Numbered from the stretch's first letter, positions 17,391-42,434 are shown. The stretch is 64,000 bases of DNA from an uncultured virus (IMG/VR IMGVR_UViG_3300044491_001439) (IMGVR_UViG_3300044491_001439); one strand, 5' to 3'. Numbers and translations are program-made. The notes: generated by a model not told the origin, from the sequence alone.

Positions 17391-18012
17391 ATTGTCTAAT
17401 CAAATTCAATCTCAACTGTTCTAACTGCACCAGGTGTGGATTATCAGCATCCATAGCATCCACAACTTCAGAATATTCTATAAGATGAGAACGCATAAAA
17501 CTATCTTGCACATCAGATTCTATCCAACCAACAATTACTTTCCTATCTCCTTTGGTTACCGGGTTTATCTTATGCATTAACCCTGTATTATACAAAATAA
17601 CAGTTCCTGCCTTTGGTTTATGAGTTGTCTCTATATTACCCACTTTGATTACTAGTTCACCACCTTCATAGTCATCATTTAAGAAAATAGTCATACTCAT
17701 ATCAGCATTTACACCACCACAAGGATATTCATCCATATGCCAGTTATAAAAATGTCCCTGCTTATACCATAGAAAGTATAACTGGGACATTTGCTTGATT
17801 AAGTATATCTTGGTGAAGTTATCCTTTTTCTTTATTTCGGACCATACACCATTAACTAATCTATTATAAGGATCAGTCCACTTCATCATCAAACTCTGTT
17901 TTACAGATGTATCAGGATTACTGATATTACCACTCTGGAAGTTATTATCTTTATAGTATGATGTAATATATTCTACAATATCGGGAGATAGTAGATCACT
18001 CTGCCATATCAT
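17377..18012 (-). CDS. PKHD-type 2OG-Fe(II) oxygenase
   Basis: YNWHMD...SMTIFLNDDYEGGEL...H...V..GDRKVIVGWIES. Confidence 0.85.
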   Translation of the reverse strand: MIWQSDLLSPDIVEYITSYYKDNNFQSGNISNPDTSVKQSLMMKWTDPYNRLVNGVWSEIKKKDNFTKIYLIKQMSQLYFLWYKQGHFYNWHMDEYPCGGVNADMSMTIFLNDDYEGGELVIKVGNIETTHKPKAGTVILYNTGLMHKINPVTKGDRKVIVGWIESDVQDSFMRSHLIEYSEVVDAMDADNPHLVQLEQLRLNLIRQYENR

Positions 18013-18967
18013 TTAATTCCTCTATGGTATAAATCTTATTGTAATCAATGCCGCCTTCGACAAAATCTTCAATGCGTAGTAGTTTCATCATTTCTTTAAC
18101 AGCAGTAGTTGTTGTCCTTTCTGATTTAGCGTAATCCTGTCGCATTGCAATGATATTTGATAGTCTAGACTCAATCAAATCTCTTGATGAATCAGTATCT
18201 CTTTCTACCCATTGATTATCCGTTCCCAAGTATTCTACCACATTTCCATTAACATCTACACCATCAGGATATAAATCTTTAAAGTTTTTGGGATCAATAG
18301 GCCATCTTAACGTTTTGATGGCTTTGAAGAAATCTAAAGAAGATGGATGTTCATCAAGAGATGGAACTACTAAAGATCTAACTTTTTGACGATATGAAAT
18401 CCATCTATCTTTTTCACCAGGATAAGAATCAACAACATCAGGAAGAATACGCCAATCAGTTGCTGCTAGAATAGCATTCTTTTCTGAAATTCTTTTTAGA
18501 TATGTTTTCTCAAAAAAGAGGATATTTTCATCAACTTTGGTTACATACTTATTAACTTTGAGTTCCCTTACAACATTGTGTGCATCAAGGAAAGCTAGAA
18601 CTTTATCATATAAATCAGAGACTTGCTCTTCAGTAAATCCAGTGAATGTATAAGTTGAATACACTTGTTGTGCATTTGCAAAATCATATTTGTATTTTTT
18701 TCTTTGACAAAATAAAGTATTGTCATTAAAAAATGAAAGATATTGAAGTTGATCTTTTTCATCATGCCAAAATACATCCAGAGATTCTAAAAATCTAGTT
18801 AAAATCTCTTTATCGTATTTTTGGGCAGAATTAGCGATCTTGGTTCCGTTATCTAAAGTGATAACATTAGACATATTCAAAACCATACAGTTGAGAAAAT
18901 CTACCTCTAGTTTACATGTCTTATCTACGTATTCCGCCATTAAGTTGACCCCGATTTGATATACCAA
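17996..18967 (-). CDS. tail fibre assembly chaperone-like protein
   Basis: LAATDWRILPD...WISYRQKVR...WPIDP motif. Confidence 0.6.
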   Translation of the reverse strand: MVYQIGVNLMAEYVDKTCKLEVDFLNCMVLNMSNVITLDNGTKIANSAQKYDKEILTRFLESLDVFWHDEKDQLQYLSFFNDNTLFCQRKKYKYDFANAQQVYSTYTFTGFTEEQVSDLYDKVLAFLDAHNVVRELKVNKYVTKVDENILFFEKTYLKRISEKNAILAATDWRILPDVVDSYPGEKDRWISYRQKVRSLVVPSLDEHPSSLDFFKAIKTLRWPIDPKNFKDLYPDGVDVNGNVVEYLGTDNQWVERDTDSSRDLIESRLSNIIAMRQDYAKSERTTTTAVKEMMKLLRIEDFVEGGIDYNKIYTIEELNDMAE

Positions 18968-19602
18968 CCTGTTACTATGTATTTATTCTGCTCACCCATA
19001 ACTAAATTGCCTTTATGCACATGAGTCATTCCCGCAGGGAATATAACTACTGTCCCAGTGGTAGGTTTAATCCTACGCAGTTGATATTGAAACTCCGTTT
19101 CTCCCCCATCTTCTATGTCATTTAGATAAATCATCCAAGTAAGTTCTCTATGAGAATACGATGATGATGCATTTTCATAATGCCACAAGTGATATCCACC
19201 GCCAGGAGGTGTACGTTGAAATTTGATATCATTTGATACTAACCCAACTTTCTTTAGTTGAGAATACTCTTGAACATAATGAAGAGCACACGATTTTAAA
19301 AACTGATTTACTTGAGTGCCCCATTTGCTACTATGATAGTTTAGCATAAATGCCCTATCATGACGATTTTGTTTTCCATTATATCCGCTCGATCCATCCA
19401 TAATATCAAGAGCTCCTGTACCAATACTATGAGCTACTGTATCATCTAAAACATCATTACCATACTTAATAAGTTGATCACAGAATGCTTTGGGAACAAA
19501 TCCTTTCCATACTCCAATAAAATCTTCAAAATCTGATGATGTCAGATTAGAATCTAACATCAATTCAAGTGGCCTATAAGGCGCAAGTTCATTAGTTGAC
19601 AT
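18940..19602 (-). CDS. 2OG-Fe(II) oxygenase
   Basis: GGYHLWHYE...WMIYLNDIEDGGETEF...THVHKG...KYIVTGW. Confidence 0.85.
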   Translation of the reverse strand: MSTNELAPYRPLELMLDSNLTSSDFEDFIGVWKGFVPKAFCDQLIKYGNDVLDDTVAHSIGTGALDIMDGSSGYNGKQNRHDRAFMLNYHSSKWGTQVNQFLKSCALHYVQEYSQLKKVGLVSNDIKFQRTPPGGGYHLWHYENASSSYSHRELTWMIYLNDIEDGGETEFQYQLRRIKPTTGTVVIFPAGMTHVHKGNLVMGEQNKYIVTGWYIKSGST

Positions 19603-29995: not shown

Positions 29996-32900
29996 TTATA
30001 CTTCGATTAGATACCAACCAACTTTGGAGGTAGAAACAGCGGTATTTCCGTCAGGATCAGATGCTCCTGCATACACAAGAGCAAATCCTGCATAAGGTGT
30101 TTGAACAATAAGTTCACCACCATTCCATCCAGAAAGATTTGCGGAGTTACCAGAAAGCATTATAGATCCTGTGTTACTAGCAGAATTCTGAACTCTAACA
30201 TTACTTGGTGCTCTAACAACAAGTGATAAGTTATAGGTCAGGATACCACCAATATCTATAATCCTAATCATGTCGCCCAATTTTGCATTATCAGGAAGTT
30301 TAACAACCGTGTTCTGACTTACATTTAAGAAGTAATTTACGTTTGCGTCGGCTTCAACAACAAAGGAATCGGAATAATCCCATCTGCGGCCACCTGTAGG
30401 TGAGAAGTAGTTAGTAATTCCACCAAGTGTAATCGCTTTATCAGCACGAATAGCGAAGGATTGGTTTCCTCCAGAGTTAATAGTTAGGTCACCACCATTG
30501 ATCGTAACATCACCAGCAATTGCTAATGATCCGCCAAATGTACTTGTTCCTGTTCCTAAAGCAGAGAATGAACCGTATGTGGTAAAATCTCCAGAAGAAT
30601 TATCAAAGGTAAGTCTCGGTGTAGTTCCATCAACACTATAGATATTGAAGTTACCACCATTCAAGATCAAATCACCTGTTGCAGTATCAATCTGGAATGT
30701 TTTTCTGAACGGAACCGCAACAGTTGTTCCATCAGATAGGTAAGAAGGACCACCGTTGGTGATTGTAAAGAACTGCTGACCTTCGATTGTAGAACCGTTG
30801 ATCGTAAGTGTGTTCTCGGTAGTAAGTGTTCCTGCAATAGCAGTATTACCTGTAGGACCATCAACAACTAACTTATTAAATCCTTGACCGAAGTTAAGAT
30901 CTCCGCTACCGAATGTATTACCGGTTGTAGATTCAATCTTAAAGTTAACAGACTCTGGCGTACCACCATCAGTAACAATGAATGATTGAATGTCTGTAGA
31001 TACTAGTTCAACAACTTTAACAATCTCACTATTAGAAAGAAGTAAGTAATCACTAGTTGTTAAAACTCCACCGAATTCAGAAATACCAATACGAACATTA
31101 GCAGTATCAGCAAGAAGACCAGATGCACTCTGCAGTCTAACTTCTGCATCAGAAGATTGATCAGACCAGAGATATTCAGCAGCAGCAAGTGTATTAGAAA
31201 GTCTAACTTCTACCGTACTAGCATTAGCAACAATGCTTGATTGTACAGGCCAATCACCATTCAGTTCACTTACGTTTGTGCCAGAGATTCTGATAAACTC
31301 ACCATAATCAACATTAAGTGTAGAGTTTGTTTCACTCTGCCAATGAATCGTAACAATGTCAGTGCCGTCAGAAACAATCTTCTGAACTTGTGCATCAGTA
31401 ATGAGTACACTTGATACAGGATCTAATTCACCGTTGTAATCGAAGTCAAATCCAGTAATAAATGAAGCATTTGTTTGCTTATCTAACTTATTGATTACAC
31501 AACCATCAGGGTGATCCGTTCTTGCTGTTGTGCCAGAGTCAGCACGAGAAACCGAGATACGGAAACCACTAGGATCATTCGGGTTGGTGATATTAGTTAG
31601 TCCAACAACCTGAACAATTTCCGTTTGTGATTGATCCTTTGGTAAAGTAGCACCAGTGCCATCAATACTATCAGGAGATAGGGGATCTGCTCTATCAATC
31701 AGAAGCAAATCACCAATCTGGAAATCACTAACAGATGGTTGAGTGATCGGTAAGTTGTAAAGATTACCAGCAGCATTAACTCCAGAAACCTGGAAAGTTA
31801 AATCATCGCCAGCTGGATTACCTAAAACAGCAGCAGGAATAGTAAGAAGATCATTGTTGCTATAACCAGAACCAGGAGATACTAATTCAACAACGGCAGT
31901 ACCATCACTCAATACTTGAATAGTGAACAATCCACCTTCACCAGTTCCACCAGTTGCTTCGATGAAAGAATATGTGGTGTTAGCAACCCAAGTTGCACTT
32001 TGAGTAGGATTGATGTTATCAATAGCAGCAATCTGACCACCACCAAGTAAGAAAGAAGAACCACCCCAAAGACCAACACCAGCAGTATCAATTACTTTTC
32101 CTGTTTGTGAGAACTTAAGGAATGTAACATTTGGATTTTCCAGTGAACCAACAATGTGATCGGATGGGCTAGTCGCGAATCTTGCTCTTTCAAGTTCGAC
32201 AATACCAGCACTCAATCCACCATCAAGTTTAAGGTTACCAAAAACAGTGGCAGTTGCAAGAACATCAAGAGAGTTTCTAATAGTAGTCTTACCACCCAAC
32301 GATGCAATAGTAACTTGGGAAGCGTTAACTCCAAGTTTTAATGCAGTTGTTGACTGACCATCACCGATATTAAGTGTTGCTGCAGGAGTAAAGATACGAG
32401 CAGAAGATGTGCCAGCAAAAGCAGCAACTTCAAGTGTGCCAGCAAGTTTAGTCTGATATGTACCAATATATGTGCTAGAAGCAAGGTTAGGTGCTCCACC
32501 GCCAAGTCTGACATCACAGTTACTAGTAACATCATCCTCAACTGTAGCAATATCAACTACCGCATTCTGCGATCTTTCATGAATTTTAAGGTTAGTTGAT
32601 CCCGCATTAGAACCAATTCTGACAGTTTGAGTTGATGAACTACCGACAGAATCACCGATACTGATCGATTGAGAATTTGCAGTAGAGTTACCAAGAATAA
32701 TCGACTCTGCTTGATTTAAACCGACGAAGAAATCAACATTATTTGTTAAGAACTGGAATGATTCTGCAGTAGAGTTAAGATCTCCACCATCCACACTCAA
32801 GTCATCTTGAATCTGCACGTTTCCAGTAAATCTGGAATCACCGATAACAACGAAGTTCTTATCGAGTTCAGTTGAAGGATCTAATCCGATGCTGGTGTTA

Positions 32901-35900
32901 ACACCAACGCGACCACCTACTCTATAAGTAGCGGATTGATCAACAACCGCGAGATCTGTTGTAGAAACACGTAATGTTGCGAAGTCATCTCCATCAGAAC
33001 TATCACCACCAACCAAGAATGCATTAGTAAGTGGGAAGTATACCTTATTGTTAGAAGGTTCGCCCAGATAGTTATTAGCGGAAACTGCACCAAGAGCATC
33101 ATATGTTACTAAATTCTTACCACTGATGAACGCATTACCAACAACATCCAAGTTAGCACGAGGATCTGAATCAGAAGATACATTAGCGGTCAATGATGCT
33201 TCTTGATTAGTTCTACCAACTGTATTGATGCCTAACTTATAGTCACCAGGGATATTAGTGTATGTACGTAATGCTTCTGCTCCAAGTACACCAGTTTCTT
33301 TCCAGATGGATTCAGAAACTTCAATCTTCGCACCAGGACCTTCGTCTTCCCAGTTGTATGTATTTGCAGCAATCTCGTTAAAGAGTCTGATCTGACATGT
33401 ATTTTCTACATCTACTGCACTAATTACATTCCAAGTTCCGTCAAAGAAGTTGTTACTGAAAGAAGAAATACGAAGTTTCTCACCAACTTTAACCTTCAGG
33501 TCTTGGTTAGTAACACCAACAGCCCACTGAATTGTAACAGCAGTAGAATTGTCAGTAGTAATAGTAAAGATTTGACCATCTCCAATCTCGGTAAAGAAGT
33601 TTGAGTAAATCCAACCCAAAGATCCAGAATAACCAACTTCCTCGCCTTTCCAAATAATATCACCAGCATTAGGAATGATAGAAGAACCGTAAGTAATATT
33701 CTGCAAAGAATACCAAGCAGAACCGCCATTAGCAACTAAACCAGTATTATTTGGTGTTACATTAGAAGGAGTACCACCAGTATAATGTGTTCTAATACTA
33801 TAAACCTGACCTTGAGCACCTACATTACCGCGAGGATTAAGTTTAAATACACCTGCTTTAACTTCGTTCTTGGTTAGAACAATGTCGCCGTCTTTATTGT
33901 CTCTGAAAGAAGATCTATCAAGAGTTGGGTCATCACCAGCACCAACCAATGATAGGATGCGAAGTGAATCTCCCTCGAATGGGTCAACATTAATTGTTAC
34001 TGGGTTGTTGAGGAACAAATCTCCTTCAACTGTTACTTTGTCATTAAATGTAACTGCAGTGTCAAATGTAGTGACAAGTGCTCCAATAGTATCACTATCA
34101 TCACCGCTATCACCTAGAACTGCCTGCTCAAGGAACGTCTCTTCGCCTGTGATAGCGTTGATCTTACGATTACCAATATAGAGGTCACCGTTAGAGTTTA
34201 GACCCGTGTAGAAGACAATACCGCCGTCTTCACGTTTTGCTTGTGCGTAGAAGTCTTGCTTATCAGATAGAACAACTTCCTGACGAAGTGGGAAACCAGT
34301 TGAGTAGTTACCAGGACCGAAACCAAGATATTCAAAGGTGTGGTTACCAGATCTTGCAATCGATGGACGACGCAACTCAACATAGTATCTACCATCTAGA
34401 GGATATACAGAGTCACCATTGATGGGGATCTTTCTGTTTTCTGAACCGATAGAAGCATTACCTTCTTGTGCTCTCAATCTGTTATCAACAATATTTCCAT
34501 CAACATTTGATGTAGTGTTCGTAAATTGATAGGAAAGAAGTGGATCAGTAGCAAGAAGATCTGAAACTGATTCTTTTGTCTCACTATACTTGTAATCATT
34601 AAGTGTTACAAGACCATGAACATAGTTATCTGCCGCAGCTGATGATGCAGGAGGATCAACAATGGATACATCTCTGGTTCCGTCATCTTGAACCTGGAAC
34701 CACAGTGGATCATTCTTGTAATCTAATGGATACAGATTGGAGATTGGTTGAGAGAACTTATAGTTTCTAAAGTTATCACCAACACCAGCACCAGTTGGAT
34801 ATGGAGAGATGTTACCACGGACAGCGGTTAGATAGTAGATACCATCCTGTTGTGCAGGAATAACTTCTTGAATCTGTTCAACGTCAAAAATATAGAAACT
34901 ATCTTCAATTTCAGGAACATCAGAAATATTTGATACTGTATAAGTATCACCGCCAGGAGTTGTTACTCTATCACCAGGAACAACTGTATAAAGATTTGCT
35001 CCCTCAATTCTATAGAGGAAGTTATCTCTAGTAGATCTAGATGCTCCTTGATAAGGAGTTGTGTTATTCCAACTATCAGGTTCACCTAATAATTCCCAGA
35101 AAGTTCCATTCGATTGTGTGAATGTTGTAACAGTATTGCCAACGTATCCCGCACCAGCAGTGTTGAAATCAAGTTTGCCAGTGACATTCTTAAGAATAAC
35201 AAATGCTGTTGCTTCAATAGCTGCTGGGAAATATGCATGAACATATGCAGAACCAGTGCAATAACCACTCCAAGTTACGTAGTTGTCATCATCACTATTG
35301 AATAAATCTTCTTCAATACCAGCACCTTGAGGAGCAGAAATTTCAATAATAGTAAAGATTTCGTTCTTTAAACTCTGATTAGTAATAGTATGATCAAATA
35401 CAGTTAATTCTAATCTGCTTTCGCCAAGATCATTCGTGACAGTTCTTGCACTTTGAATGGTAGTTGCAATCTTTGATTGGAACTCAATCTGAAGAGGATT
35501 TTCATATGGATCATATAGATCCTCGGGCGAACCGATATCAATACCAGCAGTATTCAAATCTGCTAAAGAAGCACCAAGTTGTTCTGTAGGTTGTGATGGG
35601 TTGAAGAATTGTGCTACAGCAGGAGCTCCACTGCTATATGGTTCCAGAGTTAACTTTTGTGGGCGAAGTCTTCTTCTATCATCAGTTCTAGTCTTAATAA
35701 CATAACCATTAAGAGGTTCACGGACGTTATCAAGATATTGTGGAACAACATAACGCAAACGATAGATTCTATCGAGTTCGTTTCTATCATCAGAATATCT
35801 CTCATACCATGTATCTGGGGTGAATAGATTACCGGTTCCATCAACAAAATCAGGATCATGGAATCTTGTAAGAATACCGTTTTGATTTTGACCACCCGAA

Positions 35901-38900
35901 GATTCATCGATAACGTTAAGATACCATCTATTGAAGTTAGAAGCATCAAACTTCAACGGAGATGTTTTCTTATCTCCATATACAATGAAGTCACTACCAC
36001 TGTTAGCAGTAAAGATAACTGCGTTTACACCTGCTTGTGCATCTGCTTGAGATGTATGAACCGAGAACTTCGTCTTGGTTACATAGCGAGGATAGTAATA
36101 AACATCAGTTTCTACTGGTCCACCACCAGCAATATCAGGAAGTGATGAGTTAGCATCAGAAGAAGTTCTGAAGAAAATAGTTTGTGCGGGTACGTTAGGT
36201 AGGGGAACATCAAAGACGTGAGGAATATCTGTCTCAAGATATATTCCACTCACATTAGTGACATAGCGATGCAAGTCATATGACTCGTCAAGAACATACT
36301 GCTGTAGAACAATCTCTACTCCAGGATCAATTGCTTCAGTTTCTGGCGAGTAGATGTAAATACCAGCAGCTGCGTTTTCTTTAGTGGCAGCAAGTAATAA
36401 ACCTGTTCCAGCAGTTGTATCAAACTCACTAGTATTATTGAATGAATATGGATATGTATCTCTACCAGGAGCGATTACATAGTAAGGTCTATTGGTTTCA
36501 AATCCACGAGGCAATCTAACAAGACGCTTATCAGTGTCAACTGTCAATGCTCTTGGAACAAGTCTTACCGGTGTACCAGTTTGTAATCCATGGGGATCAG
36601 ATTGTAATCCACCCGTATTAATAGAAAATAAAGTTGCACGTCCAGTTAAAGAGCGAGACTCGATAGGTGCTTCTACTCTTACTGCTTGACTACCGTTACC
36701 AGACAAAACCAGGTTAACATTATCAAAGTATCCTTCAATTGCTGTAGCAATGTTGGCACACTCTGGATAATTTGTATCCTGGGTAATATCATTATTGGCA
36801 TACTGGAATGTTTGAGCATATTGGGAAAGATTCTCAAAATACAACCATGCAGTATTAGTTGTTCCAACTGCATTATATGCTACACCTGTTGCCTGATCTA
36901 CCAATGTGATTGTAGTTGAGTTTACAATCTCGCCAATGATAGCAGTATTAACGTTAATGTTGTCAGGAAGCGAAACCGCTCCGTCATCAAGAAGACCATT
37001 TGTATAATCGTCTTGATCATATTCAATAACTCTCATACCAGGAACAAGACCTGAAGTATCTCCAACTACAACAGTTGCACTACCATCGGTTGTTGTACAA
37101 TTTTTAATCAAGAAGTTGAAGTTACGCATTGCGCCGATCATCAGGCGCTTCAGGTAATCATATGCTTCTAAAGTTTCAGTCAGTTCGTTGTCGATGAAGT
37201 CTAACTGACCACCAACTAGATAACCTTCGGCAGCAAGAATTGTATTGATGTTACCACCAAGACGCAAGTCCTTGACAGTTGCATCAACAAAGTATCCGAT
37301 GTCTCTTTCACACTTACCAATCGTGATATTAGGATTAGTTAATAGTGCGGGATACTTGGCAGTAATATGACCATAGGTCTCTTGCTGTAACCATACTCTA
37401 TTCCTTTCAATTTGATTTGCCGCATCTTGTGCGTAATTAAAATCGTCATTACCATCACCATCAACATCAAGATTGATGTTAAGTCCTGCTGGAGTTAACG
37501 TAGAGAGTGATGTAGTAAATGTCTGGAATCCACTTGGAGATAGTTCAGCAGAATAAGTTTGCTTACCACCTACGCCACCAGAAGGCAGTTTAACATATAA
37601 TCTATCTCCAGTTTTGGCACCAATACGATATCCACCAATAGTAGCTGCAGGTCTGTCTGCAGGATCTTGATTAGTGTCTCCGGCAAGATACAGACTAGTA
37701 TTATTACCTTGATCGTTAGATGCTTCAATATCAATCGTATAGTATTGCTGCTTAACAATTGCTGTGGCAGAAGTATTAACAACTTTTGGAGGAATGATAG
37801 CATCAATATAACCACCTTTATCTTGGTTGAAGGAGAATCCTTTAAAACCAATTGCGTGAAGTGATGTATTACCGAAGTTGGAGTTCGAGTTGGTGATAGA
37901 CATGTCACCACCACTTTCCATCAGGAAGTGATCGTGGAAACCAACAGCGAAGACCGAGACGCACTGAATGAAAGAGTCATCCGTTGCACGAATGTGGAAG
38001 TTTCTCCAATCATCCTTCCAGTATGCATCACCTTTAGTGTGATAAGGAATGGTAGCAAATGCATCAGTGAGTGCTGCTTGATTCCAAGTGTTAGTAAATC
38101 TATCGTAACGAATGAACGCTCTGTCATCTTTCTGTAGCGAAACACCCGTGTACTGTGCAACAACCATCGACTTGAATCCAGTTGCCTTGGATCCATCTGC
38201 CCACATACCACACTGTCCCCAGGTGGATCTAATAGAGCAGTTAAAGACATATGGTGATGCAGACTCAACCGAGTCAATTTCTGCTTGGATAACACCGTTA
38301 GTGCCAAGACCATTAGCAGCTGTGTATGTTGTACCAGAAACTAATCCCAGACCAGCAGCATTGATGGGAATAGTATAGGAGAATACTTTGGGATTATCCT
38401 GATCAACTGTGTCAACCTTGAATGTACCGTTGACATTCTCTGATAATCCACTATTGATAACAGCGATGTACTGACCCCTAAAATATCCGTGGTCAATCTT
38501 TGTGGATACAGTAATTCGAGCAGAAGATCCAGGAGCAATGTCTACAATCTCGATACTCTCGATTGTTCTGGTATCAGATAGAGGACCAACAATCCTATTC
38601 TCTTGTACCAGTGCTTCTAAATCGCCATCATCGATGGTGGGTTGGAACTGTGCGAATGCTCTACCAACTTTCTCGTAATAACGATCGAGTTCAGCATTAT
38701 CCGCATAAGTCATGATAGTGATCTTATGGTGCGAATACTCGGGAATCGCTAATGAAGAGAAATCGGATGGATTGTTGTATACCTTACCAACACGATCTGC
38801 CTGATCATACAAAGGAGAGTTCTCGGAAAGATCACCATCCTTGATAGTGAACTGCCACAGATAACAACCACCGGTCAAGTTAAAGATAGAAGTTCTTCCA

Positions 38901-40441
38901 TAAGCACCATCTACGGGATCAGGAACAAACAGAGGTCTGACAATCGTGCGTCGAAGGTCATAACCAATCAGCGAACAACCTCTGGGAACGATAGTGCCAC
39001 CAGTCGTGGAGTTAAACTTGTAGAGAACGTTGTCTGGATTGGAAAGATCAAGAATCGAATCATCCTGCCATTCTTCCAGTGCTCTGTTGTAATCAAATAC
39101 AGGCACAGTACCAGTAACCTGAACTGCAGCGAGACCTGTAAGCGTACCTGCAGTGAGGGTATCAGTGAGAATAGCAACAAGTGTTGTGATGGATGACTGA
39201 ACATCAACGCAGGTAGCGATATTGCCTGATGCGTTGTATTCAATAGTCGGCGTTGCCTGACCTGCAATTGCAGGACCTGGAGATATAGTAAGATCCTTCT
39301 CATACAGCGAGTTAGTTACAGCAAGTTTCATCATGTCTCTTGCTTTGTTGAAGGAAGTTACTGATTCAGTAATTTCCCCAACTAATCCGTCAGCAACAGG
39401 ATTACCATCACGGTCGAAATAATTTTTGGTAGCAGAAATAGTATTAGCATTACCACCGTTACGAATGTCAGCAATGACAGCTTCTACAACATATCCAAGG
39501 TCGCGCTTACACTTCTGCTCACCAGCAGTTTCGTGATCCGATACTGTTTCTGCAGGAAGATTTGATAGATTTTCATCAGACAATACAGTTGTGACAACTG
39601 TGGTCAAATTATTGATAAAAGTCTGAACATCTGCACAGGAAGCAGGATCTTCGTTATCACCAGTTGCAGGATCAGCAGTGATAGTAAGATCTTTTACAGT
39701 CAGTTGGTTGGTGATAGCAAGAAGCATATTGTCTCTTGCCGACTCAAATGCAGCAATAGACTCTGTTACTTCACCTTCTAAACTATCATCAATCCAAGCA
39801 GTTCCTGCTTCATTGAAGTAATTTTGAAGAAGTTTACGGGTATATACGTTACCACCAGCCTGTGCTACATCAAGAGAAACAGCGTCGATGAAGCGTCCAA
39901 TGTCAATCTTACACTTGTTCTCAAGATCAGGAGGTGCAGGAACAGGAGGATTTGCTGCTACTACAGCATATGCATTGTCAATAATTTCTTGTCTGTTTAA
40001 CTGAATCAGACGATATGAATCAGCATATCTAGATCCATCATCAGTTTGATTATCACCAGGATAGTAAAAATCGGGGTGCTGAACAGCAATTTCAGCAGCA
40101 GCACGGTCAATAATTTCTTGTGTATTGGCCTCAATCAGGTTACCAGCGTCAAAATTACGTGATACTGGGGTTGCTGCATCTACAAGACCAGGACGGTTAT
40201 CAATAAAGTGATTACCAGGCATCAGCATTACACTGAACTGGTCAAACCTATCATTATCCTTACCAGGCAGGTAAGAGTAACGTGATACCTCAATAAATGC
40301 TCTCTGGATCGTCTTGAATGGACGTAGTGGGGAGTTACCTCTATTGTCTAACTCATCAGTCGCATTAAAGTCATCTGGAGATACATATAGATACTTACCC
40401 GTTTTACTTGAGTAAAGATTATCAAGTCTTGTAAGAGGCAT
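29996..40441 (-). CDS. giant virion structural protein (3481 aa) with phycobiliprotein-like units
   Basis: YVSP...GNS..RPFKTIQRA N-terminus typical of cyanomyovirus fibre-like proteins; TATAAATA late promoter upstream; KCxRDxGY repeats. Confidence 0.8.
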   Translation of the reverse strand: MPLTRLDNLYSSKTGKYLYVSPDDFNATDELDNRGNSPLRPFKTIQRAFIEVSRYSYLPGKDNDRFDQFSVMLMPGNHFIDNRPGLVDAATPVSRNFDAGNLIEANTQEIIDRAAAEIAVQHPDFYYPGDNQTDDGSRYADSYRLIQLNRQEIIDNAYAVVAANPPVPAPPDLENKCKIDIGRFIDAVSLDVAQAGGNVYTRKLLQNYFNEAGTAWIDDSLEGEVTESIAAFESARDNMLLAITNQLTVKDLTITADPATGDNEDPASCADVQTFINNLTTVVTTVLSDENLSNLPAETVSDHETAGEQKCKRDLGYVVEAVIADIRNGGNANTISATKNYFDRDGNPVADGLVGEITESVTSFNKARDMMKLAVTNSLYEKDLTISPGPAIAGQATPTIEYNASGNIATCVDVQSSITTLVAILTDTLTAGTLTGLAAVQVTGTVPVFDYNRALEEWQDDSILDLSNPDNVLYKFNSTTGGTIVPRGCSLIGYDLRRTIVRPLFVPDPVDGAYGRTSIFNLTGGCYLWQFTIKDGDLSENSPLYDQADRVGKVYNNPSDFSSLAIPEYSHHKITIMTYADNAELDRYYEKVGRAFAQFQPTIDDGDLEALVQENRIVGPLSDTRTIESIEIVDIAPGSSARITVSTKIDHGYFRGQYIAVINSGLSENVNGTFKVDTVDQDNPKVFSYTIPINAAGLGLVSGTTYTAANGLGTNGVIQAEIDSVESASPYVFNCSIRSTWGQCGMWADGSKATGFKSMVVAQYTGVSLQKDDRAFIRYDRFTNTWNQAALTDAFATIPYHTKGDAYWKDDWRNFHIRATDDSFIQCVSVFAVGFHDHFLMESGGDMSITNSNSNFGNTSLHAIGFKGFSFNQDKGGYIDAIIPPKVVNTSATAIVKQQYYTIDIEASNDQGNNTSLYLAGDTNQDPADRPAATIGGYRIGAKTGDRLYVKLPSGGVGGKQTYSAELSPSGFQTFTTSLSTLTPAGLNINLDVDGDGNDDFNYAQDAANQIERNRVWLQQETYGHITAKYPALLTNPNITIGKCERDIGYFVDATVKDLRLGGNINTILAAEGYLVGGQLDFIDNELTETLEAYDYLKRLMIGAMRNFNFLIKNCTTTDGSATVVVGDTSGLVPGMRVIEYDQDDYTNGLLDDGAVSLPDNINVNTAIIGEIVNSTTITLVDQATGVAYNAVGTTNTAWLYFENLSQYAQTFQYANNDITQDTNYPECANIATAIEGYFDNVNLVLSGNGSQAVRVEAPIESRSLTGRATLFSINTGGLQSDPHGLQTGTPVRLVPRALTVDTDKRLVRLPRGFETNRPYYVIAPGRDTYPYSFNNTSEFDTTAGTGLLLAATKENAAAGIYIYSPETEAIDPGVEIVLQQYVLDESYDLHRYVTNVSGIYLETDIPHVFDVPLPNVPAQTIFFRTSSDANSSLPDIAGGGPVETDVYYYPRYVTKTKFSVHTSQADAQAGVNAVIFTANSGSDFIVYGDKKTSPLKFDASNFNRWYLNVIDESSGGQNQNGILTRFHDPDFVDGTGNLFTPDTWYERYSDDRNELDRIYRLRYVVPQYLDNVREPLNGYVIKTRTDDRRRLRPQKLTLEPYSSGAPAVAQFFNPSQPTEQLGASLADLNTAGIDIGSPEDLYDPYENPLQIEFQSKIATTIQSARTVTNDLGESRLELTVFDHTITNQSLKNEIFTIIEISAPQGAGIEEDLFNSDDDNYVTWSGYCTGSAYVHAYFPAAIEATAFVILKNVTGKLDFNTAGAGYVGNTVTTFTQSNGTFWELLGEPDSWNNTTPYQGASRSTRDNFLYRIEGANLYTVVPGDRVTTPGGDTYTVSNISDVPEIEDSFYIFDVEQIQEVIPAQQDGIYYLTAVRGNISPYPTGAGVGDNFRNYKFSQPISNLYPLDYKNDPLWFQVQDDGTRDVSIVDPPASSAAADNYVHGLVTLNDYKYSETKESVSDLLATDPLLSYQFTNTTSNVDGNIVDNRLRAQEGNASIGSENRKIPINGDSVYPLDGRYYVELRRPSIARSGNHTFEYLGFGPGNYSTGFPLRQEVVLSDKQDFYAQAKREDGGIVFYTGLNSNGDLYIGNRKINAITGEETFLEQAVLGDSGDDSDTIGALVTTFDTAVTFNDKVTVEGDLFLNNPVTINVDPFEGDSLRILSLVGAGDDPTLDRSSFRDNKDGDIVLTKNEVKAGVFKLNPRGNVGAQGQVYSIRTHYTGGTPSNVTPNNTGLVANGGSAWYSLQNITYGSSIIPNAGDIIWKGEEVGYSGSLGWIYSNFFTEIGDGQIFTITTDNSTAVTIQWAVGVTNQDLKVKVGEKLRISSFSNNFFDGTWNVISAVDVENTCQIRLFNEIAANTYNWEDEGPGAKIEVSESIWKETGVLGAEALRTYTNIPGDYKLGINTVGRTNQEASLTANVSSDSDPRANLDVVGNAFISGKNLVTYDALGAVSANNYLGEPSNNKVYFPLTNAFLVGGDSSDGDDFATLRVSTTDLAVVDQSATYRVGGRVGVNTSIGLDPSTELDKNFVVIGDSRFTGNVQIQDDLSVDGGDLNSTAESFQFLTNNVDFFVGLNQAESIILGNSTANSQSISIGDSVGSSSTQTVRIGSNAGSTNLKIHERSQNAVVDIATVEDDVTSNCDVRLGGGAPNLASSTYIGTYQTKLAGTLEVAAFAGTSSARIFTPAATLNIGDGQSTTALKLGVNASQVTIASLGGKTTIRNSLDVLATATVFGNLKLDGGLSAGIVELERARFATSPSDHIVGSLENPNVTFLKFSQTGKVIDTAGVGLWGGSSFLLGGGQIAAIDNINPTQSATWVANTTYSFIEATGGTGEGGLFTIQVLSDGTAVVELVSPGSGYSNNDLLTIPAAVLGNPAGDDLTFQVSGVNAAGNLYNLPITQPSVSDFQIGDLLLIDRADPLSPDSIDGTGATLPKDQSQTEIVQVVGLTNITNPNDPSGFRISVSRADSGTTARTDHPDGCVINKLDKQTNASFITGFDFDYNGELDPVSSVLITDAQVQKIVSDGTDIVTIHWQSETNSTLNVDYGEFIRISGTNVSELNGDWPVQSSIVANASTVEVRLSNTLAAAEYLWSDQSSDAEVRLQSASGLLADTANVRIGISEFGGVLTTSDYLLLSNSEIVKVVELVSTDIQSFIVTDGGTPESVNFKIESTTGNTFGSGDLNFGQGFNKLVVDGPTGNTAIAGTLTTENTLTINGSTIEGQQFFTITNGGPSYLSDGTTVAVPFRKTFQIDTATGDLILNGGNFNIYSVDGTTPRLTFDNSSGDFTTYGSFSALGTGTSTFGGSLAIAGDVTINGGDLTINSGGNQSFAIRADKAITLGGITNYFSPTGGRRWDYSDSFVVEADANVNYFLNVSQNTVVKLPDNAKLGDMIRIIDIGGILTYNLSLVVRAPSNVRVQNSASNTGSIMLSGNSANLSGWNGGELIVQTPYAGFALVYAGASDPDGNTAVSTSKVGWYLIEV

Positions 40442-40479
40442 AATTAACCCGTTCCTTCTAGGACTATTTCTTCTTGGAT

Positions 40480-40487
40480 TATTTATA
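40480..40487 (-). promoter_or_regulatory. T4-type late promoter TATAAATA
   Basis: Exact T4 late consensus about 40 bp upstream of the giant gene. Confidence 0.8.
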
Positions 40488-40491
40488 CAAT

Positions 40492-40517
40492 AAAACCTCC
40501 CCTTGTGAGGGAGGTTT
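40492..40517 (-). terminator. rho-independent terminator after tRNA-Asn
   Basis: Minus strand AAACCTCCCTCACAAGGGGAGGTTTT hairpin with T-tail. Confidence 0.7.
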
Positions 40518-40558
40518 CAAGCACACGGAAGGGGTTTTGATTTGACGATAATCGCCAA

Positions 40559-40630
40559 CTGGCGTGGCAAGACTCGAACTTGCAACCTAGGAGTTAACAG
40601 CTCCTCGCACTGCCATTGTGCTACACGCCA
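40559..40630 (-). tRNA. tRNA-Asn (GTT)
   Basis: TGGCGTG/CACGCCA acceptor stem, anticodon loop ctGTTaa, GTTCGAG T-loop; CCA not encoded. Confidence 0.9.
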
Positions 40631-41142
40631 CCAAAGTAATTAATATTAATTACATATCTCGATCTAGTATCAGTAGTTGTTGTACTTGTATGCCTCAAAT
40701 CACTGGGAAATGATACCAAGCGATTACCAACACTATTAACTTTCTCACCACTTTCAAATCCAGTATATCCATCACATGTATTGATATAATATACTGCTGT
40801 CTTACAGTATTTCATATAATCATTATCAATATAATTGTCAATATGGTAACCATATTCACGTATTTTTGGAGTACATAATGTCATGTTAAGTTGAGATCTA
40901 TAGATCATATCGACCTTGAGTTTTCTAAACAATGGTTCAAAAAACTCAAAAGCATAACTCTTAACTTGCATTTCTTTATATAAGATATGCACAAAATGTT
41001 GATTATACTTATCTTCAACCGCAGATTCTTTTTCTAAAACGGTACTATCAAACCATTGAAACATTGGATTTTTGATAACCATCTCACACAGTTCGGAATG
41101 CCAACCTGCAGGCATATAGTTGTCAAAAATTTGATATTTCAT
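40621..41142 (-). CDS. 2OG-Fe(II) oxygenase
   Basis: GYHID...TAVYYINTCDGYT.F...NRLVSF....H.......R..ININYF. Confidence 0.8.
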   Translation of the reverse strand: MKYQIFDNYMPAGWHSELCEMVIKNPMFQWFDSTVLEKESAVEDKYNQHFVHILYKEMQVKSYAFEFFEPLFRKLKVDMIYRSQLNMTLCTPKIREYGYHIDNYIDNDYMKYCKTAVYYINTCDGYTGFESGEKVNSVGNRLVSFPSDLRHTSTTTTDTRSRYVININYFGGV

Positions 41143-41163
41143 TATTTTAAATAGAGGATCGAG

Positions 41164-41235
41164 AGCCCCCGAACAGATTTGAACTGATGACCTTTGCTTT
41201 ACAAAAGCACTGCTCTACCGCTGAGCTACAGGGGC
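41164..41235 (-). tRNA. tRNA-Thr (TGT)
   Basis: GCCCCTG/CGGGGGC acceptor stem, TAGCTCAG..GGTAGAGC D-arm, ttTGTaa, GTTCAAAT. Confidence 0.9.
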
Positions 41236-41750
41236 GTCTTTAAAAATTTGAAGTGACCGTGTTTGCCACCCCAAACTTGTTTGTCGGTATCCACCAAATA
41301 ACCTCTATCAACTACATTATATTGTTCTTTCGATAGAAAGATATCATTTTTGATATAGGTTATTTGATCTTGCCATTCGACGTAACAACTACATCCTTGG
41401 AGTGAACCTTGGAATGAATCACCGTCGAATGTAAACATTATATCACAAGACTCTTTATGAGTCAACCCTTCAGGACGAGATTCTAAATTTTTAAACCCCA
41501 GATGGAAGTTTTTATCAAAATCATAGTTTTTTACTCGTATTGACCCATTATCTTCTAGTGCTTCCACAATAAATTGACGATAAGGTGCATCTATCGAATA
41601 GTTATATGCTTGCTCACCATAGTACATTGATTCTGTACCTTGGATTTTTTTATGGACCAGACGGACCATAGCAAACTTTGAAGGATATGAAAATGCTTGA
41701 ACTTTATTCTCCCACGTTCCCTCAAACCATTCATTAAATATATCAATCAT
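41226..41750 (-). CDS. cpeT: T-type phycobilin lyase CpeT/CpcT
   Basis: FEGTWENKVQAFSYPSKFA.VRL.H...YGEQAY.Y...PYRQ...DRGY......VWG...G.FKF; start moved to MIDIF. Confidence 0.85.
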   Translation of the reverse strand: MIDIFNEWFEGTWENKVQAFSYPSKFAMVRLVHKKIQGTESMYYGEQAYNYSIDAPYRQFIVEALEDNGSIRVKNYDFDKNFHLGFKNLESRPEGLTHKESCDIMFTFDGDSFQGSLQGCSCYVEWQDQITYIKNDIFLSKEQYNVVDRGYLVDTDKQVWGGKHGHFKFLKTPL

Positions 41751-42021
41751 CTTTGGGTAATAGTTCAGGATCATTAACTTCAATATCAAACATTAGAGGA
41801 TGACACTCCTCTTCAGCAAGATATGAAGACCACTTATATAATTCTTCATCATCCCAATCACAACCTTGCAATGCTTCGGTTTGTACTGATGGGTGATCTT
41901 GAATGATTTGCGGTAGTTCATCAAAGGTATATGGAATACCTTGTATGAAATACATTCTTACCACTTGTCCCATAAAGAAACAATATGATTGGGAAAGTTC
42001 GTATTTCATGACTTTTTCCAC
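41743..42021 (-). CDS. conserved cyanophage hypothetical protein
   Basis: VVRMYFIQGIPYTFDEL...YL.EEECHPLMF. Confidence 0.7.
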   Translation of the reverse strand: MEKVMKYELSQSYCFFMGQVVRMYFIQGIPYTFDELPQIIQDHPSVQTEALQGCDWDDEELYKWSSYLAEEECHPLMFDIEVNDPELLPKDD

Positions 42022-42028
42022 TACGGAT

Positions 42029-42035
42029 TATTTAG
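42029..42035 (-). promoter_or_regulatory. late-promoter-like CTAAATA upstream of the hypothetical-cpeT unit
   Basis: Same TAAATA core precedes structural genes at about 22740, 52101 and 55848. Confidence 0.55.
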
Positions 42036-42044
42036 TAATGGACA

Positions 42045-42129
42045 TGGGGCGAGAGAGACTTGAACTCTCACAGGCATAATGCCCAACTGATTTTAAGTCA
42101 GGTGCGTCTACCGATTCCGCCACCGCCCC
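42045..42129 (-). tRNA. tRNA-Leu (TAA)
   Basis: GGGGCGG acceptor, ctTAAaa anticodon loop, long variable arm, GTTCAAG. Confidence 0.9.
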
Positions 42130-42142: not shown

Positions 42143-42171
42143 ATTATAACGTATGTGCCCTGATCTGTCAA
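42143..42171 (-). promoter_or_regulatory. consensus sigma70 promoter for tRNA-Leu
   Basis: TTGACA, 17 bp, TATAAT. Confidence 0.8.
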
Positions 42172-42434
42172 CTTTCGTCGAGCAGACCCATATTTTTTAG
42201 ATATTCCAGTGTATCATGCATATTACCTACGTGAAAGTTGCCTATTGCAACCTGTGGATATGTTGCATCTGGACCAAATTCCATTCTAAATTGATGATCA
42301 TCAAAATCAAAATCTAAAACATATTCGTGAAATTCACCACCAAGAGATCTCAAAAGCATTGCAATACGCTCACACTCTTGATTTCCGTTACTATAAATTA
42401 CTGATGTCTTCATTTTCGGTGTAGTTGATAACAA
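42168..42434 (-). CDS. glutaredoxin-like protein (single Cys)
   Basis: VIYSNGNQECER...EFG.DATYPQV.IG..HVG. Confidence 0.7.
   Translation of the reverse strand: MLSTTPKMKTSVIYSNGNQECERIAMLLRSLGGEFHEYVLDFDFDDHQFRMEFGPDATYPQVAIGNFHVGNMHDTLEYLKNMGLLDES

What the first reader, a model, noticed from the sequence alone, without database searches (positions are those of the whole stretch)
29996..42035. cpeT lyase next to the phycobiliprotein-like virion gene: a candidate enzyme-substrate pair
Seen: cpeT (41226-41750) lies under 1 kb upstream of the giant gene on the same strand, behind a late-promoter-like CTAAATA (42029-42035). Knowledge: T-type lyases attach bilin specifically to the beta-Cys153/155 site, and to my knowledge the natural acceptor of phage CpeT is unresolved and usually assumed to be host phycoerythrin. 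Inference: the acceptor may be the phage's own structural protein, whose ECANIATAIEGYFD segment resembles the T-lyase target helix. If so, this cpeT is a virion maturation enzyme rather than a photosynthesis auxiliary gene.
Basis: inference. Interest (0 to 1): 0.88.

Follow-up and report, generated by a model that had tools for sequence, protein, structure and literature searches.

The report
Phage bilin lyase beside pigment-protein-like fibre
A marine cyanophage carries a pigment-attaching enzyme gene (cpeT) next to a giant tail-fibre gene whose domains look like the host's light-harvesting pigment proteins, which gives the enzyme a plausible but unproven target on the virus particle.

Summary
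cpeT (41226-41750, minus strand; Pfam PF06206, E 3e-33) ends 784 nt upstream of a 3481-aa tail-fibre gene (29996-40441). A CTAAATA lies at 42029-42035.

The fibre protein has three helical modules. Two AlphaFold models (pLDDT 91 and 93) match phycobiliproteins best. For unit 1, the top 8 of 48,161 PDB clusters are all phycobiliproteins or phycobilisome chains (Z 15.5-12.3). The modules keep the bilin-binding CxRD motif (Cys and Asp invariant) and a second Cys capping the last helix, where T-type lyases act on beta subunits.

cpeT and the module co-occur in 22 of 22 phage genomes tested (17 with both, 5 with neither). In all 17 they lie at least 30 kb apart, so adjacency is specific to this clade.

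Weak points:
- Sequence similarity to phycobiliproteins is sub-threshold.
- P-HM2 cpeT is a middle gene.
- A Cys-Cys disulfide could not be excluded.
- No pigment binding has been shown.

The enzyme-substrate idea is partly supported, at about 0.35. This scan reached the same idea on other DNA (e1-5645404). My four literature searches found nothing in print.

The parts
42143..42171 (-). Perfect sigma-70-type promoter consensus (TTGACA-17-TATAAT) ahead of tRNA-Leu. It is a possible early or host-polymerase start for the tRNA-cpeT islet.
   Evidence: 12 of 12 matches
42045..42129 (-). tRNA-Leu (TAA)
42029..42035 (-). CTAAATA, late-promoter-like. The octamer ACTAAATA differs from NATAAATA at one base. 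It lies 7 nt before the GTG at 42021 and 19 nt before the ATG at 42009 of the small ORF that overlaps cpeT.
   Evidence: The NATAAATA consensus comes from a passage in PMC2984593.
41743..42021 (-). Conserved small ORF (92 aa, phrog_4134) whose end overlaps the cpeT start. Likely translated together with cpeT.
   Evidence: The same arrangement is annotated in S-CAM3 and under most cpeT hits.
41226..41750 (-). cpeT, T-type phycobiliprotein lyase homologue (174 aa from the ATG)
41163..41235 (-). tRNA-Thr (TGT), overlapping the 3' end of cpeT
40621..41142 (-). 173-aa ORF. PHROG 274 labels it 'DNA endonuclease V'. There is a weak 2OG-Fe(II) oxygenase-like Pfam hit below the cut-off.
40559..40630 (-). 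tRNA-Asn (GTT)
40499..40512 (-). Terminator-like hairpin followed by a T run. It separates the cpeT islet from the giant gene.
40480..40487 (-). TATAAATA, the exact T4 late-promoter octamer, 39 nt upstream of the giant gene's ATG
29996..40441 (-). Giant tail-fibre gene (3481 aa). Its start resembles, from recall and untested here, the N-terminus of beta-helix tailspike proteins. It carries three phycobiliprotein-like modules followed by a long fibre region.
39527..40174 (-). Module 1 with its N-terminal helices (aa 90-305). It forms a full phycobiliprotein-like globin domain with Cys177 (KCKID) and Cys269.
39092..39553 (-). Module 2 (aa 297-450), with Cys311 (KCKRD) and Cys411
36656..37345 (-). 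Module 3 (aa about 1033-1262), with Cys1044 (KCERD). An insertion of about 100 aa precedes the last helix, which starts at Cys1228.
36722..36763 (-). The ECANIATAIEGYFD segment (aa 1227-1240). It is the start of module 3's last helix. Cys1228 aligns to the module's second conserved Cys.
   Evidence: negative sequence search

Best explanation
The window comes from a T4-like cyanomyovirus.

Shown:
- cpeT is a genuine T-type bilin-lyase homologue, placed inside the baseplate and tail-fibre gene block.
- The neighbouring 3481-aa fibre protein carries three domains with the phycobiliprotein (beta-type globin) fold.
- These domains keep the CxRD chromophore motif and a second cysteine at the start of the last helix.
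- cpeT and such modules are present or absent together in every genome tested.

Inferred:
- The modules are biliproteins.
- The CxRD cysteine takes up a bilin, possibly without a lyase, as ApcE (recalled) and BBAG globins do.
- Phage CpeT delivers a bilin, probably phycoerythrobilin, to the second cysteine. That cysteine is the structural counterpart of beta-Cys153/155, the only site T-type lyases serve.

On this reading cpeT is a virion-maturation enzyme rather than, or as well as, a helper of host light harvesting.
For: Fold:
- The unit 1 model has pLDDT 92.9 and pTM 0.90.
- In VIA-align against 48,161 PDB clusters, the top 8 are all phycobiliprotein or phycobilisome-core chains. The best is phycoerythrin 5aqd_M (Z 15.5, rmsd 2.5 A, 141 residues, model 43-199 against chain 28-184). 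ApcE 4xxi follows at Z 14.2, and the eighth hit scores 12.3. The first other family, a stressosome globin, scores 11.0, and haemoglobins score about 6.
- In Foldseek against the PDB, 34 of the 35 listed rows are phycobiliprotein chains (E 4.6e-4 to 3.6e-3, probability 1.00). Most are 172-184 residues long, as beta chains are.
- Unit 2 alone also has phycoerythrin as its top hit (Z 8.7), and 8 of the top 14 rows are phycobiliprotein or phycobilisome chains.

Motif:
- In 80 non-redundant units, the Cys is present in 80 of 80, Asp at +3 in 80 of 80, and Arg at +2 in 69 of 80.
- In the larger set, Asp is present in 364 of 364 and Arg in 321 of 364.
- CXRD is the phycobiliprotein chromophore motif (passages of PMC10151467).
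- The module profile searched against PDB sequences gives 34 phycobiliproteins among 40 hits, aligned on the Cys84 helix, with best E 0.03.

Second Cys:
- It is present in 72 of 80 units.
- It lies at the N-cap of the last helix in both models.
- The first Cys survives in units that have lost the second: 33 'Cx' units against 0 'xC', including about 11 units with a single Cys in total. This argues against an obligatory disulfide.

Linkage:
- In cpeT-centred IMG/VR loci, 55 of 55 with at least 4.4 kb downstream have a module-bearing ORF on the same strand, starting 10-2176 nt after cpeT. These 79 loci come from the best 80 of 249 hits.
- Among 22 complete genomes, 17 have both, 5 have neither and 0 are discordant.
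- The gp32 tree needs at least 2 joint changes among cyanophages, because ACG-2014f (both present) is nested among P-SSM2, S-SM2 and S-SSM7 (both absent).

Other:
- The CTAAATA position is promoter-like.
- Print sources call the role of phage cpeT 'unresolved' (PMC3037559 passage).
Against: - No bilin binding and no CpeT-module contact has been shown by anything here.
- Sequence similarity to phycobiliproteins is below threshold. PF00502 scores 18.9 bits against a cut-off of 22.2. Only 1 of 80 units hits it singly, at E 0.012. The best profile E against the PDB is 0.03. The ECANIATAIEGYFD piece finds no phycobiliprotein. The protein atlas gave only pilin-like leads below 0.9.
- I could not read model coordinates, so the distance between the two cysteines is unknown. 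A structural disulfide in an extracellular protein remains possible.
- In all 17 tested genomes that have both, cpeT lies at least 30 kb from the modules. In Syn9 it sits between a tail protein and the gp5-like hub. The adjacency is therefore clade-specific and could reflect conserved gene order.
- Both genes are near-universal in cyanomyoviruses, and the three cyanophages lacking both fall in one clade. The concordance therefore rests on few independent events.
- Three module loci with at least 3 kb upstream lack a nearby cpeT: L022, L030 and L031.
- Here a terminator-like hairpin and a separate TATAAATA split cpeT from the fibre gene, and a sigma-70 consensus could drive early expression.
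- In P-HM2, cpeT is in the 'Mid' cluster (PMC5082946, supplementary file 6, one row).
- Many modules in 6000-aa relatives keep CxRD but mostly seem to lack a second Cys. P0011 has 29 CxRD among 48 Cys.
- P-SSM2 makes bilins (pebS, ho1) yet has neither cpeT nor modules.
Confidence: 0.35

Rival explanations
1. cpeT is an ordinary host-directed auxiliary gene. It acts on, or regulates, host phycoerythrin during infection. The fibre modules are pigment-free descendants of a captured phycobiliprotein gene, used as structural or adhesin domains. Co-occurrence and synteny reflect shared ancestry and conserved gene order in T4-like cyanophages.
For: - This is the standard view in print (passages of PMC10452541, and PMC2984593).
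- P-HM2 cpeT is a middle gene, as many metabolic genes are.
- cpeT is far from the modules in the 17 tested genomes that have both.
- The genomes lacking both cluster in one clade.
- cpeT and the fibre gene are separate transcription units here.
- A sigma-70 consensus lies upstream.
Against: - It gives no reason for zero discordant genomes among 22, nor for the joint reappearance of both genes in ACG-2014f.
- cpeT sits among baseplate and fibre genes, not with photosynthesis genes.
- Phages of Prochlorococcus MED4 (P-HM1, P-HM2) keep cpeT and have five module matches each.
- Invariance of the Cys and Asp of CxRD over hundreds of diverged units is hard to explain for a pigment-free scaffold.
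- Recalled, not seen here: Gasper et al. 2017 found that the P-HM1 CpeT-PEB complex did not pass PEB directly to the host beta subunit.
Confidence: 0.3
2. The modules are biliproteins that self-attach a bilin at the CxRD cysteine, as ApcE and BBAG globins do. CpeT is not their lyase. It may only hold or buffer phycoerythrobilin, or it may serve the host.
For: - CxRD is the invariant feature, while the second Cys is dispensable in some units and apparently in most units of the 36-module relatives.
- BBAGs with CXRD bind bilins without lyases (PMC10151467 passages).
- The ApcE bilin-binding domain is the second-best structural match (Z 14.2).
- T-type lyases are not known to serve the Cys82-type site (established knowledge, recalled).
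Against: - The second Cys is kept in 253 of 286 fully aligned distinct units.
- cpeT tracks the module in 22 of 22 genomes.
Confidence: 0.15
3. The two conserved cysteines form a stabilising disulfide in a helical spacer domain of an extracellular fibre. The resemblance to phycobiliproteins is fold convergence within globin-like bundles and has no link to bilins.
For: - Nearly every unit has exactly two Cys.
- Sequence evidence for homology is sub-threshold.
- Helical models can reach middling Z by chance, according to the tool's own note.
Against: - The top 8 of 48,161 clusters are all phycobiliprotein or phycobilisome chains, standing above other globins. Foldseek independently agrees.
- The first Cys is never lost, while the second is lost in some units that then hold a single Cys.
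- Asp at +3 is invariant and Arg at +2 is common, reproducing CXRD.
- In phycobiliproteins the two equivalent cysteines carry separate bilins and are far apart (recalled, not measured here).
Confidence: 0.1

Closest known systems
Phycobiliprotein beta subunits (CpeB, CpcB, cryptophyte beta; Pfam PF00502)
   Same: - The same globin-type fold over helices A/B to H (Z 15.5, rmsd 2.5 A over 141 residues; Foldseek probability 1.00).
- A CxRD motif early in the long central helix.
- A second Cys capping the last helix, as at beta-153/155.
   Different: - The modules are embedded as 3 (up to 36 in relatives) tandem units in giant phage fibre proteins rather than being free 170-aa subunits.
- The Pfam score is below the cut-off, with 13-18% identity.
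- The X-Y hairpin region (chain residues 1-27) is not matched.
- There are long loops with short strands, and module 3 has a 100-aa insertion.
- No pigment has been shown.
ApcE (core-membrane linker) phycobiliprotein-like domain, and BBAG bilin-binding globins
   Same: - A phycobiliprotein-type globin domain placed inside a larger multidomain protein (ApcE: Z 14.2, rmsd 2.0 A).
- A CXRD-type site that can take a bilin without a lyase. For BBAGs this is from PMC10151467 passages. For ApcE, autocatalysis is recalled.
   Different: - Those are cellular proteins of cyanobacteria or heterotrophs.
- They are not virion parts and are not repeated in tandem.
- No T-type site is described for them here.
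CpcT/CpeT T-type bilin lyases, including cyanophage PhiCpeT of P-HM1 (Gasper et al. 2017, recalled; paper not held)
   Same: The window's CpeT matches PF06206 end to end (residues 19-184 against profile positions 3-181 of 181). Its relatives include the cpeT of P-HM1 and P-HM2.
   Different: - Host enzymes sit in phycoerythrin operons with cpeE, cpeS and cpeR (PMC3037559 passage).
- The phage gene stands alone among baseplate and fibre genes.
- Its acceptor is unknown.
Cyanobacteriochrome-like GAF folds in cyanosiphophages (PMC12481020, passages)
   Same: Another predicted bilin-binding fold found in cyanophage proteomes by structure prediction, also without a binding test.
   Different: A different fold (GAF, not globin), different phages (siphoviruses CrV-01T and P-SS2), not reported as a fibre or virion domain, and with no lyase partner.

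Membership tests
CpeT/CpcT T-type lyase (Pfam PF06206) | Profile match over the curated cut-off along the whole domain | tested here: met
   115.5 bits against a cut-off of 21, E 3.3e-33, profile positions 3-181 of 181; PHROG 488 at E 1e-44
CpeT/CpcT T-type lyase (Pfam PF06206) | Attaches a bilin to the Cys153/155-type site of a beta-type phycobiliprotein | not testable with these tools
   Needs co-expression and in vitro assays.
Phycobiliprotein (Pfam PF00502) | Profile match over the curated cut-off | tested here: not met
   - 18.9 bits against 22.2, E 0.0015, helix-B region only.
- 13.4 bits in the own-genome search.
- 1 of 80 single units hits, at E 0.012.
Phycobiliprotein (Pfam PF00502) | Phycobiliprotein-type globin fold | tested here: met
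   - VIA-align: the top 8 of 48,161 clusters are phycobiliprotein or phycobilisome chains, Z 15.5-12.3.
- Foldseek: 34 of 35 listed rows are phycobiliproteins, probability 1.00.
- These are predicted models, not solved structures.
Phycobiliprotein (Pfam PF00502) | CXRD chromophore motif in the central (E) helix | tested here: met
   - Cys 80 of 80, Asp 80 of 80, Arg 69 of 80; Asp 364 of 364.
- Cys88 lies in helix 84-104 of the model.
- The profile aligns it to Cys84 of phycocyanin alpha.
- The motif definition comes from PMC10151467.
Phycobiliprotein (Pfam PF00502) | Second Cys equivalent to beta-153/155 | tested here: inconclusive
   The Cys sits at the N-cap of the last helix, and the aligned ranges fit. 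No residue-by-residue structural alignment or coordinates were available. The short-segment sequence search was negative.
Phycobiliprotein (Pfam PF00502) | Covalently bound bilin | not testable with these tools
   No experiment was possible. No bilin reductase or haem oxygenase gene is present in the 91.7-kb fragment, which is 47% complete.
Phycobiliprotein (Pfam PF00502) | N-terminal X-Y hairpin used for alpha/beta pairing | tested here: inconclusive
   The structural alignment starts at chain residue 28. The model has two earlier helices (3-16 and 18-32) that were not matched.
T4-type late promoter (TATAAATA; NATAAATA in S-PM2) | Octamer in a short spacer upstream of the gene | tested here: met
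   For the giant gene, TATAAATA lies 39 nt before the ATG. For the cpeT operon there is only ACTAAATA, one base off NATAAATA. That is suggestive but not a strict match.

The most novel reading that the evidence does not exclude
Cyanomyovirus particles are biliproteins. The phycobiliprotein-like modules of their fibres carry covalently bound bilins, installed in part by phage CpeT. These bilins act as a photoreceptor on the virion that gates adsorption.

This would explain light-dependent adsorption. P-HM1, P-HM2 and S-PM2 have both cpeT and modules and adsorb only in the light. P-SSM2 and P-SSP7 have neither and adsorb in the dark.
Probability: 0.13. Interest if true: 0.95.

Novelty: new variant of a known kind. 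Interest (0 to 1): 0.82.

Why it matters
Two long-standing puzzles become directly testable.

First, the role of cpeT. It is one of the commonest 'photosynthesis' genes of marine cyanomyoviruses, yet print sources still call its role unresolved (PMC3037559 passage).

If the fibre modules are biliproteins matured by CpeT, a gene counted as an auxiliary metabolic gene is really a virion-maturation gene. Virus particles would then carry a pigment, perhaps a light sensor.

Even without pigment, the capture and tandem multiplication of a host antenna-protein fold into phage fibres is a new case of host-gene exaptation. About 1,320 representative proteins carry the module, with up to 36 copies in one protein.

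Tried and rejected
- Complex prediction of CpeT with module 1 (collected) returned 'no answer' (score 0.01, controls not run). It counts neither for nor against binding.
- Foldseek with the short unit 2 model found nothing at E <= 0.001. The longer unit 1 model was needed.
- The protein atlas gave only pilin-like leads below 0.9.
- A single-unit Pfam scan showed noise: 34 families, with PF00502 hit once.
- phmmer of the ECANIATAIEGYFD piece found one ankyrin at E 1.2.
The scan with cpeT found one locus only, in a 'Verrucomicrobiales MAG' contig. I therefore obtained no cyanobacterial phycobiliprotein sequences, ran no profile-profile comparison, and did not test whether the module occurs in cellular genomes.
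- The representatives search lists only the best 150 of 1,320 hits, all giant or fragmentary module proteins. Whether true phycobiliproteins appear among the weaker hits is unknown.
- Model coordinates are not exposed, so the Cys-Cys distance could not be measured.
- Gasper et al. 2017 is not held.
- Own-genome notes of this scan: none.
- I considered and dropped the idea that CTAAATA is over-represented. It is not. Only its placement is telling.

Full report
**What the window is.** The closest phage records are Synechococcus phages S-CAM3 and S-CAM1, at about 81% nucleotide identity over the cpeT islet. The window's own record is a 91.7-kb viral fragment judged 47% complete. PHROG annotation of 69 ORFs places the finding inside the structural block of a T4-like cyanomyovirus. 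Baseplate-hub and tail genes run from 43.9 to 55.8 kb. A small islet of tRNAs and short ORFs occupies 40.5-43.8 kb. The giant fibre gene follows, and then collar, fibre, 'virion structural' and fibre-assembly genes down to about 15.5 kb. All are on the minus strand.

**The observation.** cpeT is real. It matches PF06206 at E 3.3e-33, well over the cut-off, and PHROG 488 at E 1e-44. The giant gene is 29996-40441, 3481 aa, and matches phrog_4527 'short tail fiber protein'. The two genes are 784 nt apart on the same strand.

- tRNA-Thr, overlapping the cpeT stop, and tRNA-Asn.
- A 173-aa ORF.
- A terminator-like hairpin at 40499-40512.
- An exact TATAAATA at 40480-40487, 39 nt before the fibre gene's ATG.

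The fibre gene therefore has its own late promoter and is a separate transcription unit.

The CTAAATA at 42029-42035 is present. Its count in the window (10) is not above the shuffle mean (12.9). However, six of the ten copies lie 3-43 nt before a start codon in short spacers, mostly before structural genes. That placement is what a late-promoter core would show. S-PM2's late promoter is given as NATAAATA in a passage of PMC2984593, and ACTAAATA is one base off it. A perfect sigma-70 consensus lies at 42171..42143, ahead of tRNA-Leu. Early transcription of the islet is therefore equally possible.

**The fibre modules.** KCx[RI]D occurs at residues 176, 310 and 1043. The nearby Cys pairs are 177/269, 311/411 and 1044/1228. 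A local jackhmmer search over ORFs of 65 IMG/VR loci found 424 such units in 67 ORFs. In the window only the giant gene has them, and the same holds for the whole 91.7-kb record.

Eighty non-redundant units (under 60% identity) were aligned as A1. In this set:
- The first Cys is present in 80 of 80.
- Asp three residues later is present in 80 of 80.
- Arg at +2 is present in 69 of 80.
- The second Cys is present in 72 of 80.

In a larger set of 433 distinct units:
- 253 have both Cys.
- 33 have the first Cys only.
- None has the second Cys only, and none lacks both.
- 147 were only partly aligned.
- Asp at +3 is present in 364 of 364 and Arg at +2 in 321 of 364.

Several 'first only' cases are artefacts of insertions, and the window's own unit 3 is one of them. 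About 11 are real single-Cys units. Cys1228 of ECANIATAIEGYFD aligns to the module's second Cys, after an insertion of about 100 residues.

**Is the module phycobiliprotein-like?** By sequence, only weakly.
- PF00502 hits residues 97-132 at E 0.0015, 18.9 bits, below the 22.2 cut-off. It scores E 0.0033 in the own-genome search.
- The A1 profile searched against PDB sequences gives 34 phycobiliproteins among 40 hits. All align on the Cys84 helix ('GKAKCARDIGYY..GG'), but the best E is 0.03.
- Single units hit PF00502 in 1 of 80 cases.
- The ECANIATAIEGYFD piece finds no phycobiliprotein.
- The protein atlas was uninformative.

By structure, the evidence is strong.
- Unit 2 alone (pLDDT 91.0, pTM 0.84) gave nothing significant in Foldseek. 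In the all-against-all VIA search its top hit was phycoerythrin (Z 8.7), with 8 phycobiliprotein or phycobilisome chains among the top 14.
- Unit 1 with its N-terminal helices (aa 90-305; 68-row alignment A3) gave an eight-helix model with pLDDT 92.9 and pTM 0.90.
- For that model, the top eight of 48,161 PDB clusters are all phycobiliprotein or phycobilisome chains. The best is phycoerythrin 5aqd_M at Z 15.5 (rmsd 2.5 A, 141 residues, model 43-199 on chain 28-184). ApcE's bilin domain scores 14.2, allophycocyanin 13.0, and the eighth hit 12.3.
- Below these come stressosome and sensor globins at 11.0-8, and haemoglobins near 6.
- Foldseek independently lists 35 rows. Of these, 34 are phycobiliprotein chains (E 4.6e-4 to 3.6e-3, probability 1.00), mostly 172-184 residues long, which fits beta chains.

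In the model, the CxRD Cys (Cys88 of the piece) lies early in the long helix 84-104, and the second Cys (180) caps helix 181-200. Passages of PMC10151467 state that phycobiliproteins use a CXRD motif. [quoted passage not shown] The same passages state that related BBAG globins attach bilins without lyases.

I conclude that the modules have the phycobiliprotein fold and keep its chromophore motif. They do not pass the Pfam membership test, so I do not file them as family members.

**Where the module occurs.**
- tblastn against 50,697 phage records found it in 271 records, all named Synechococcus, Prochlorococcus, Cyanophage or one marine virus.
- In the BFVD fold search, the named significant hits are Synechococcus-phage tail or structural proteins and uncultured Caudovirales.
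- A profile search of 1.84 billion representatives found 1,320 proteins at E <= 0.001. The best 150 are mostly 1,000-7,900 aa long, with 2-36 matched stretches.
- Two of these have 29 and 31 CxRD motifs among 48 and 50 cysteines, against under 0.25 expected from shuffles.
- Whether cellular genomes encode the module was not tested.

**Link between cpeT and the module: synteny.** In 79 cpeT-centred IMG/VR loci examined, every one of the 55 with at least 4.4 kb downstream has a module-bearing ORF on the same strand, starting 10-2176 nt after cpeT. These loci come from the best 80 of 249 hits, all at least 41% identical to the window's CpeT. The 17 loci without units all have under 3.9 kb downstream, and 7 shorter loci already show units.

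In the 65 module-centred loci:
- 31 have cpeT just upstream.
- 7 have too little upstream sequence to judge.
- 24 carry the module in another gene, with no cpeT within 10 kb.
- 3 (L022, L030, L031) have the fibre gene's N-terminus and at least 3 kb upstream but no cpeT.

The same order is seen in S-CAM3. By coordinates it also holds in S-PM2, S-CAM1, S-CAM4, S-RIM32, S-RIM44, Syn1, S-RSM4 and S-WAM2.

**Link between cpeT and the module: co-occurrence.** I searched 22 complete phage records with both profiles.
- Both present (17): P-SSM4, P-HM1, P-HM2, Syn9, S-WAM1, P-TIM40, P-RSM6, S-RIM2, P-RSM1, P-RSM3, S-RIM12, S-RIM8, ACG-2014a, ACG-2014b, ACG-2014d, ACG-2014f and MS29.
- Both absent (5): P-SSM2, S-SM2, S-SSM7, Pelagibacter phage HTVC008M and the podovirus P-SSP7.
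- Discordant: none.

The choice of records was not blind. Five were well-known phages. Two were picked because Table 3 of PMC3037559 shows them without cpeT. Three were picked for odd module positions. Eleven came from an even-step sample of gp32 hits. One was picked for the adsorption comparison.

In all 17 genomes with both, cpeT is at least 30 kb from the nearest module. In Syn9 it lies between a tail protein and the gp5-like hub. It is therefore still in the baseplate block, but not next to a module gene.

A gp32 tree puts S-SSM7, S-SM2 and P-SSM2 in one well-supported clade (99/94). That clade also holds ACG-2014f, which has both genes, as sister of P-SSM2 (100/98). At least two joint changes are therefore needed among cyanophages. 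This is a single-gene tree with few events, so the result is suggestive but not conclusive.

**Timing and literature.**
- In P-HM2, cpeT (PHM2_031) is listed as 'Mid (B)' in light and 'Mid (C)' in dark (PMC5082946, supplementary file 6, one row seen). This is neither strictly early nor late.
- PMC3037559 passages report cpeT in 12 of 16 cyanomyoviruses and call its role unresolved.
- PMC10452541 and PMC2984593 passages give the host-antenna reading.
- PMC6628666 passages report that P-HM1 and P-HM2 do not adsorb in the dark. P-SSM2 and P-SSP7 do. S-PM2's light-dependent adsorption does not depend on photosynthesis. The authors name host receptors and/or tail fibres as the possible light-sensitive part.
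- Set against my genotype calls, the three light-dependent phages have cpeT and modules (S-PM2). The two dark-adsorbing phages I tested have neither. That is five phages and an anecdote, but it points to a clear experiment.
- Four text searches found no paper describing a phycobiliprotein-like domain in a phage fibre. The nearest is a 2025 report of GAF folds in siphophages (PMC12481020 passages).
- Supplements of bioRxiv papers, and the proteomics tables of PMC3037559, were not seen and may bear on whether these proteins are confirmed virion parts.
- An earlier report of this scan on another genome (e1-5645404) reached the same reading. I read it after my own tests.

**Verdict.** The phycobiliprotein-like nature of the fibre modules is well supported by fold and motif, though not by family membership. 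The enzyme-substrate idea passes the one check it could have failed here, co-occurrence, and it fits the site logic of T-type lyases. It remains an inference, which I put at about 0.35.

The main rivals are:
- A host-directed cpeT whose link to the modules reflects lineage history (0.30).
- Lyase-independent bilin uptake at CxRD (0.15).
- A plain disulfide in a convergent helical domain (0.10).

Noticed in passing
window 16848-17390, 17380-18012, 18943-19602, 40621-41142 (all minus strand): Four ORFs with 2OG-Fe(II) oxygenase or 'endonuclease V'-type PHROG hits are interleaved with tail-fibre and fibre-assembly genes. Like cpeT, they might modify virion proteins rather than host metabolism.
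   Followed up: no
window 41743-42021 (minus strand): A conserved 92-aa ORF (phrog_4134, no Pfam hit) overlaps the cpeT start. A hypothetical protein is annotated in the same place in S-CAM3, and under the cpeT hits in S-PM2 ('T4-like GC 730') and most other records. Syn9 gp17 sits likewise. It could be a CpeT partner.
   Followed up: partly
window 42171-42413 (minus strand): A thioredoxin-fold ORF (phrog_22; annotated as glutaredoxin in S-CAM3) lies just upstream of the tRNA-Leu/cpeT islet. A thiol-redox protein next to a Cys-directed lyase may be worth testing together with it.
   Followed up: no
window 41163-41235 against the cpeT stop at 41226-41228: tRNA-Thr overlaps the last codons of cpeT by 10 nt. 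The same overlap is annotated in S-CAM3 and S-CAM1.
   Followed up: no
P0011 (6382 aa), P0012 (5984 aa), P0004 (2927 aa) from the representatives library: Relatives carry up to 36 matched stretches of the module profile, with 29-31 CxRD motifs. Most units there seem to lack the second Cys. P0004 also multiplies the helix-A/B-like 'SRFxDSYRLIQxN..EI.D...A.I....PDFYFPGD' hairpin about ten times.
   Followed up: partly
L208 (contig NYWG01000192.1, 'Verrucomicrobiales bacterium' MAG): This was the only genome-contig hit to the phage-type CpeT pattern, at 33% identity on a 25.9-kb contig. It is probably a cyanophage contig binned into a bacterial MAG.
   Followed up: no
window 42143-42171 (minus strand): A perfect 12-of-12 sigma-70 promoter consensus lies directly ahead of tRNA-Leu. 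The tRNA/cpeT islet may therefore have both an early and a late start.
   Followed up: no
ACG-2014f record KJ019155.1 (cpeT near 149.6 kb; modules at 180-190 kb): Both genes are present in a clade that otherwise lacks them. They sit at unusual positions and score weakly (module best E 6e-12). The cpeT match covers only profile positions 2-76, in a 139-aa frame. This could be a separate acquisition or a decaying pair.
   Followed up: no
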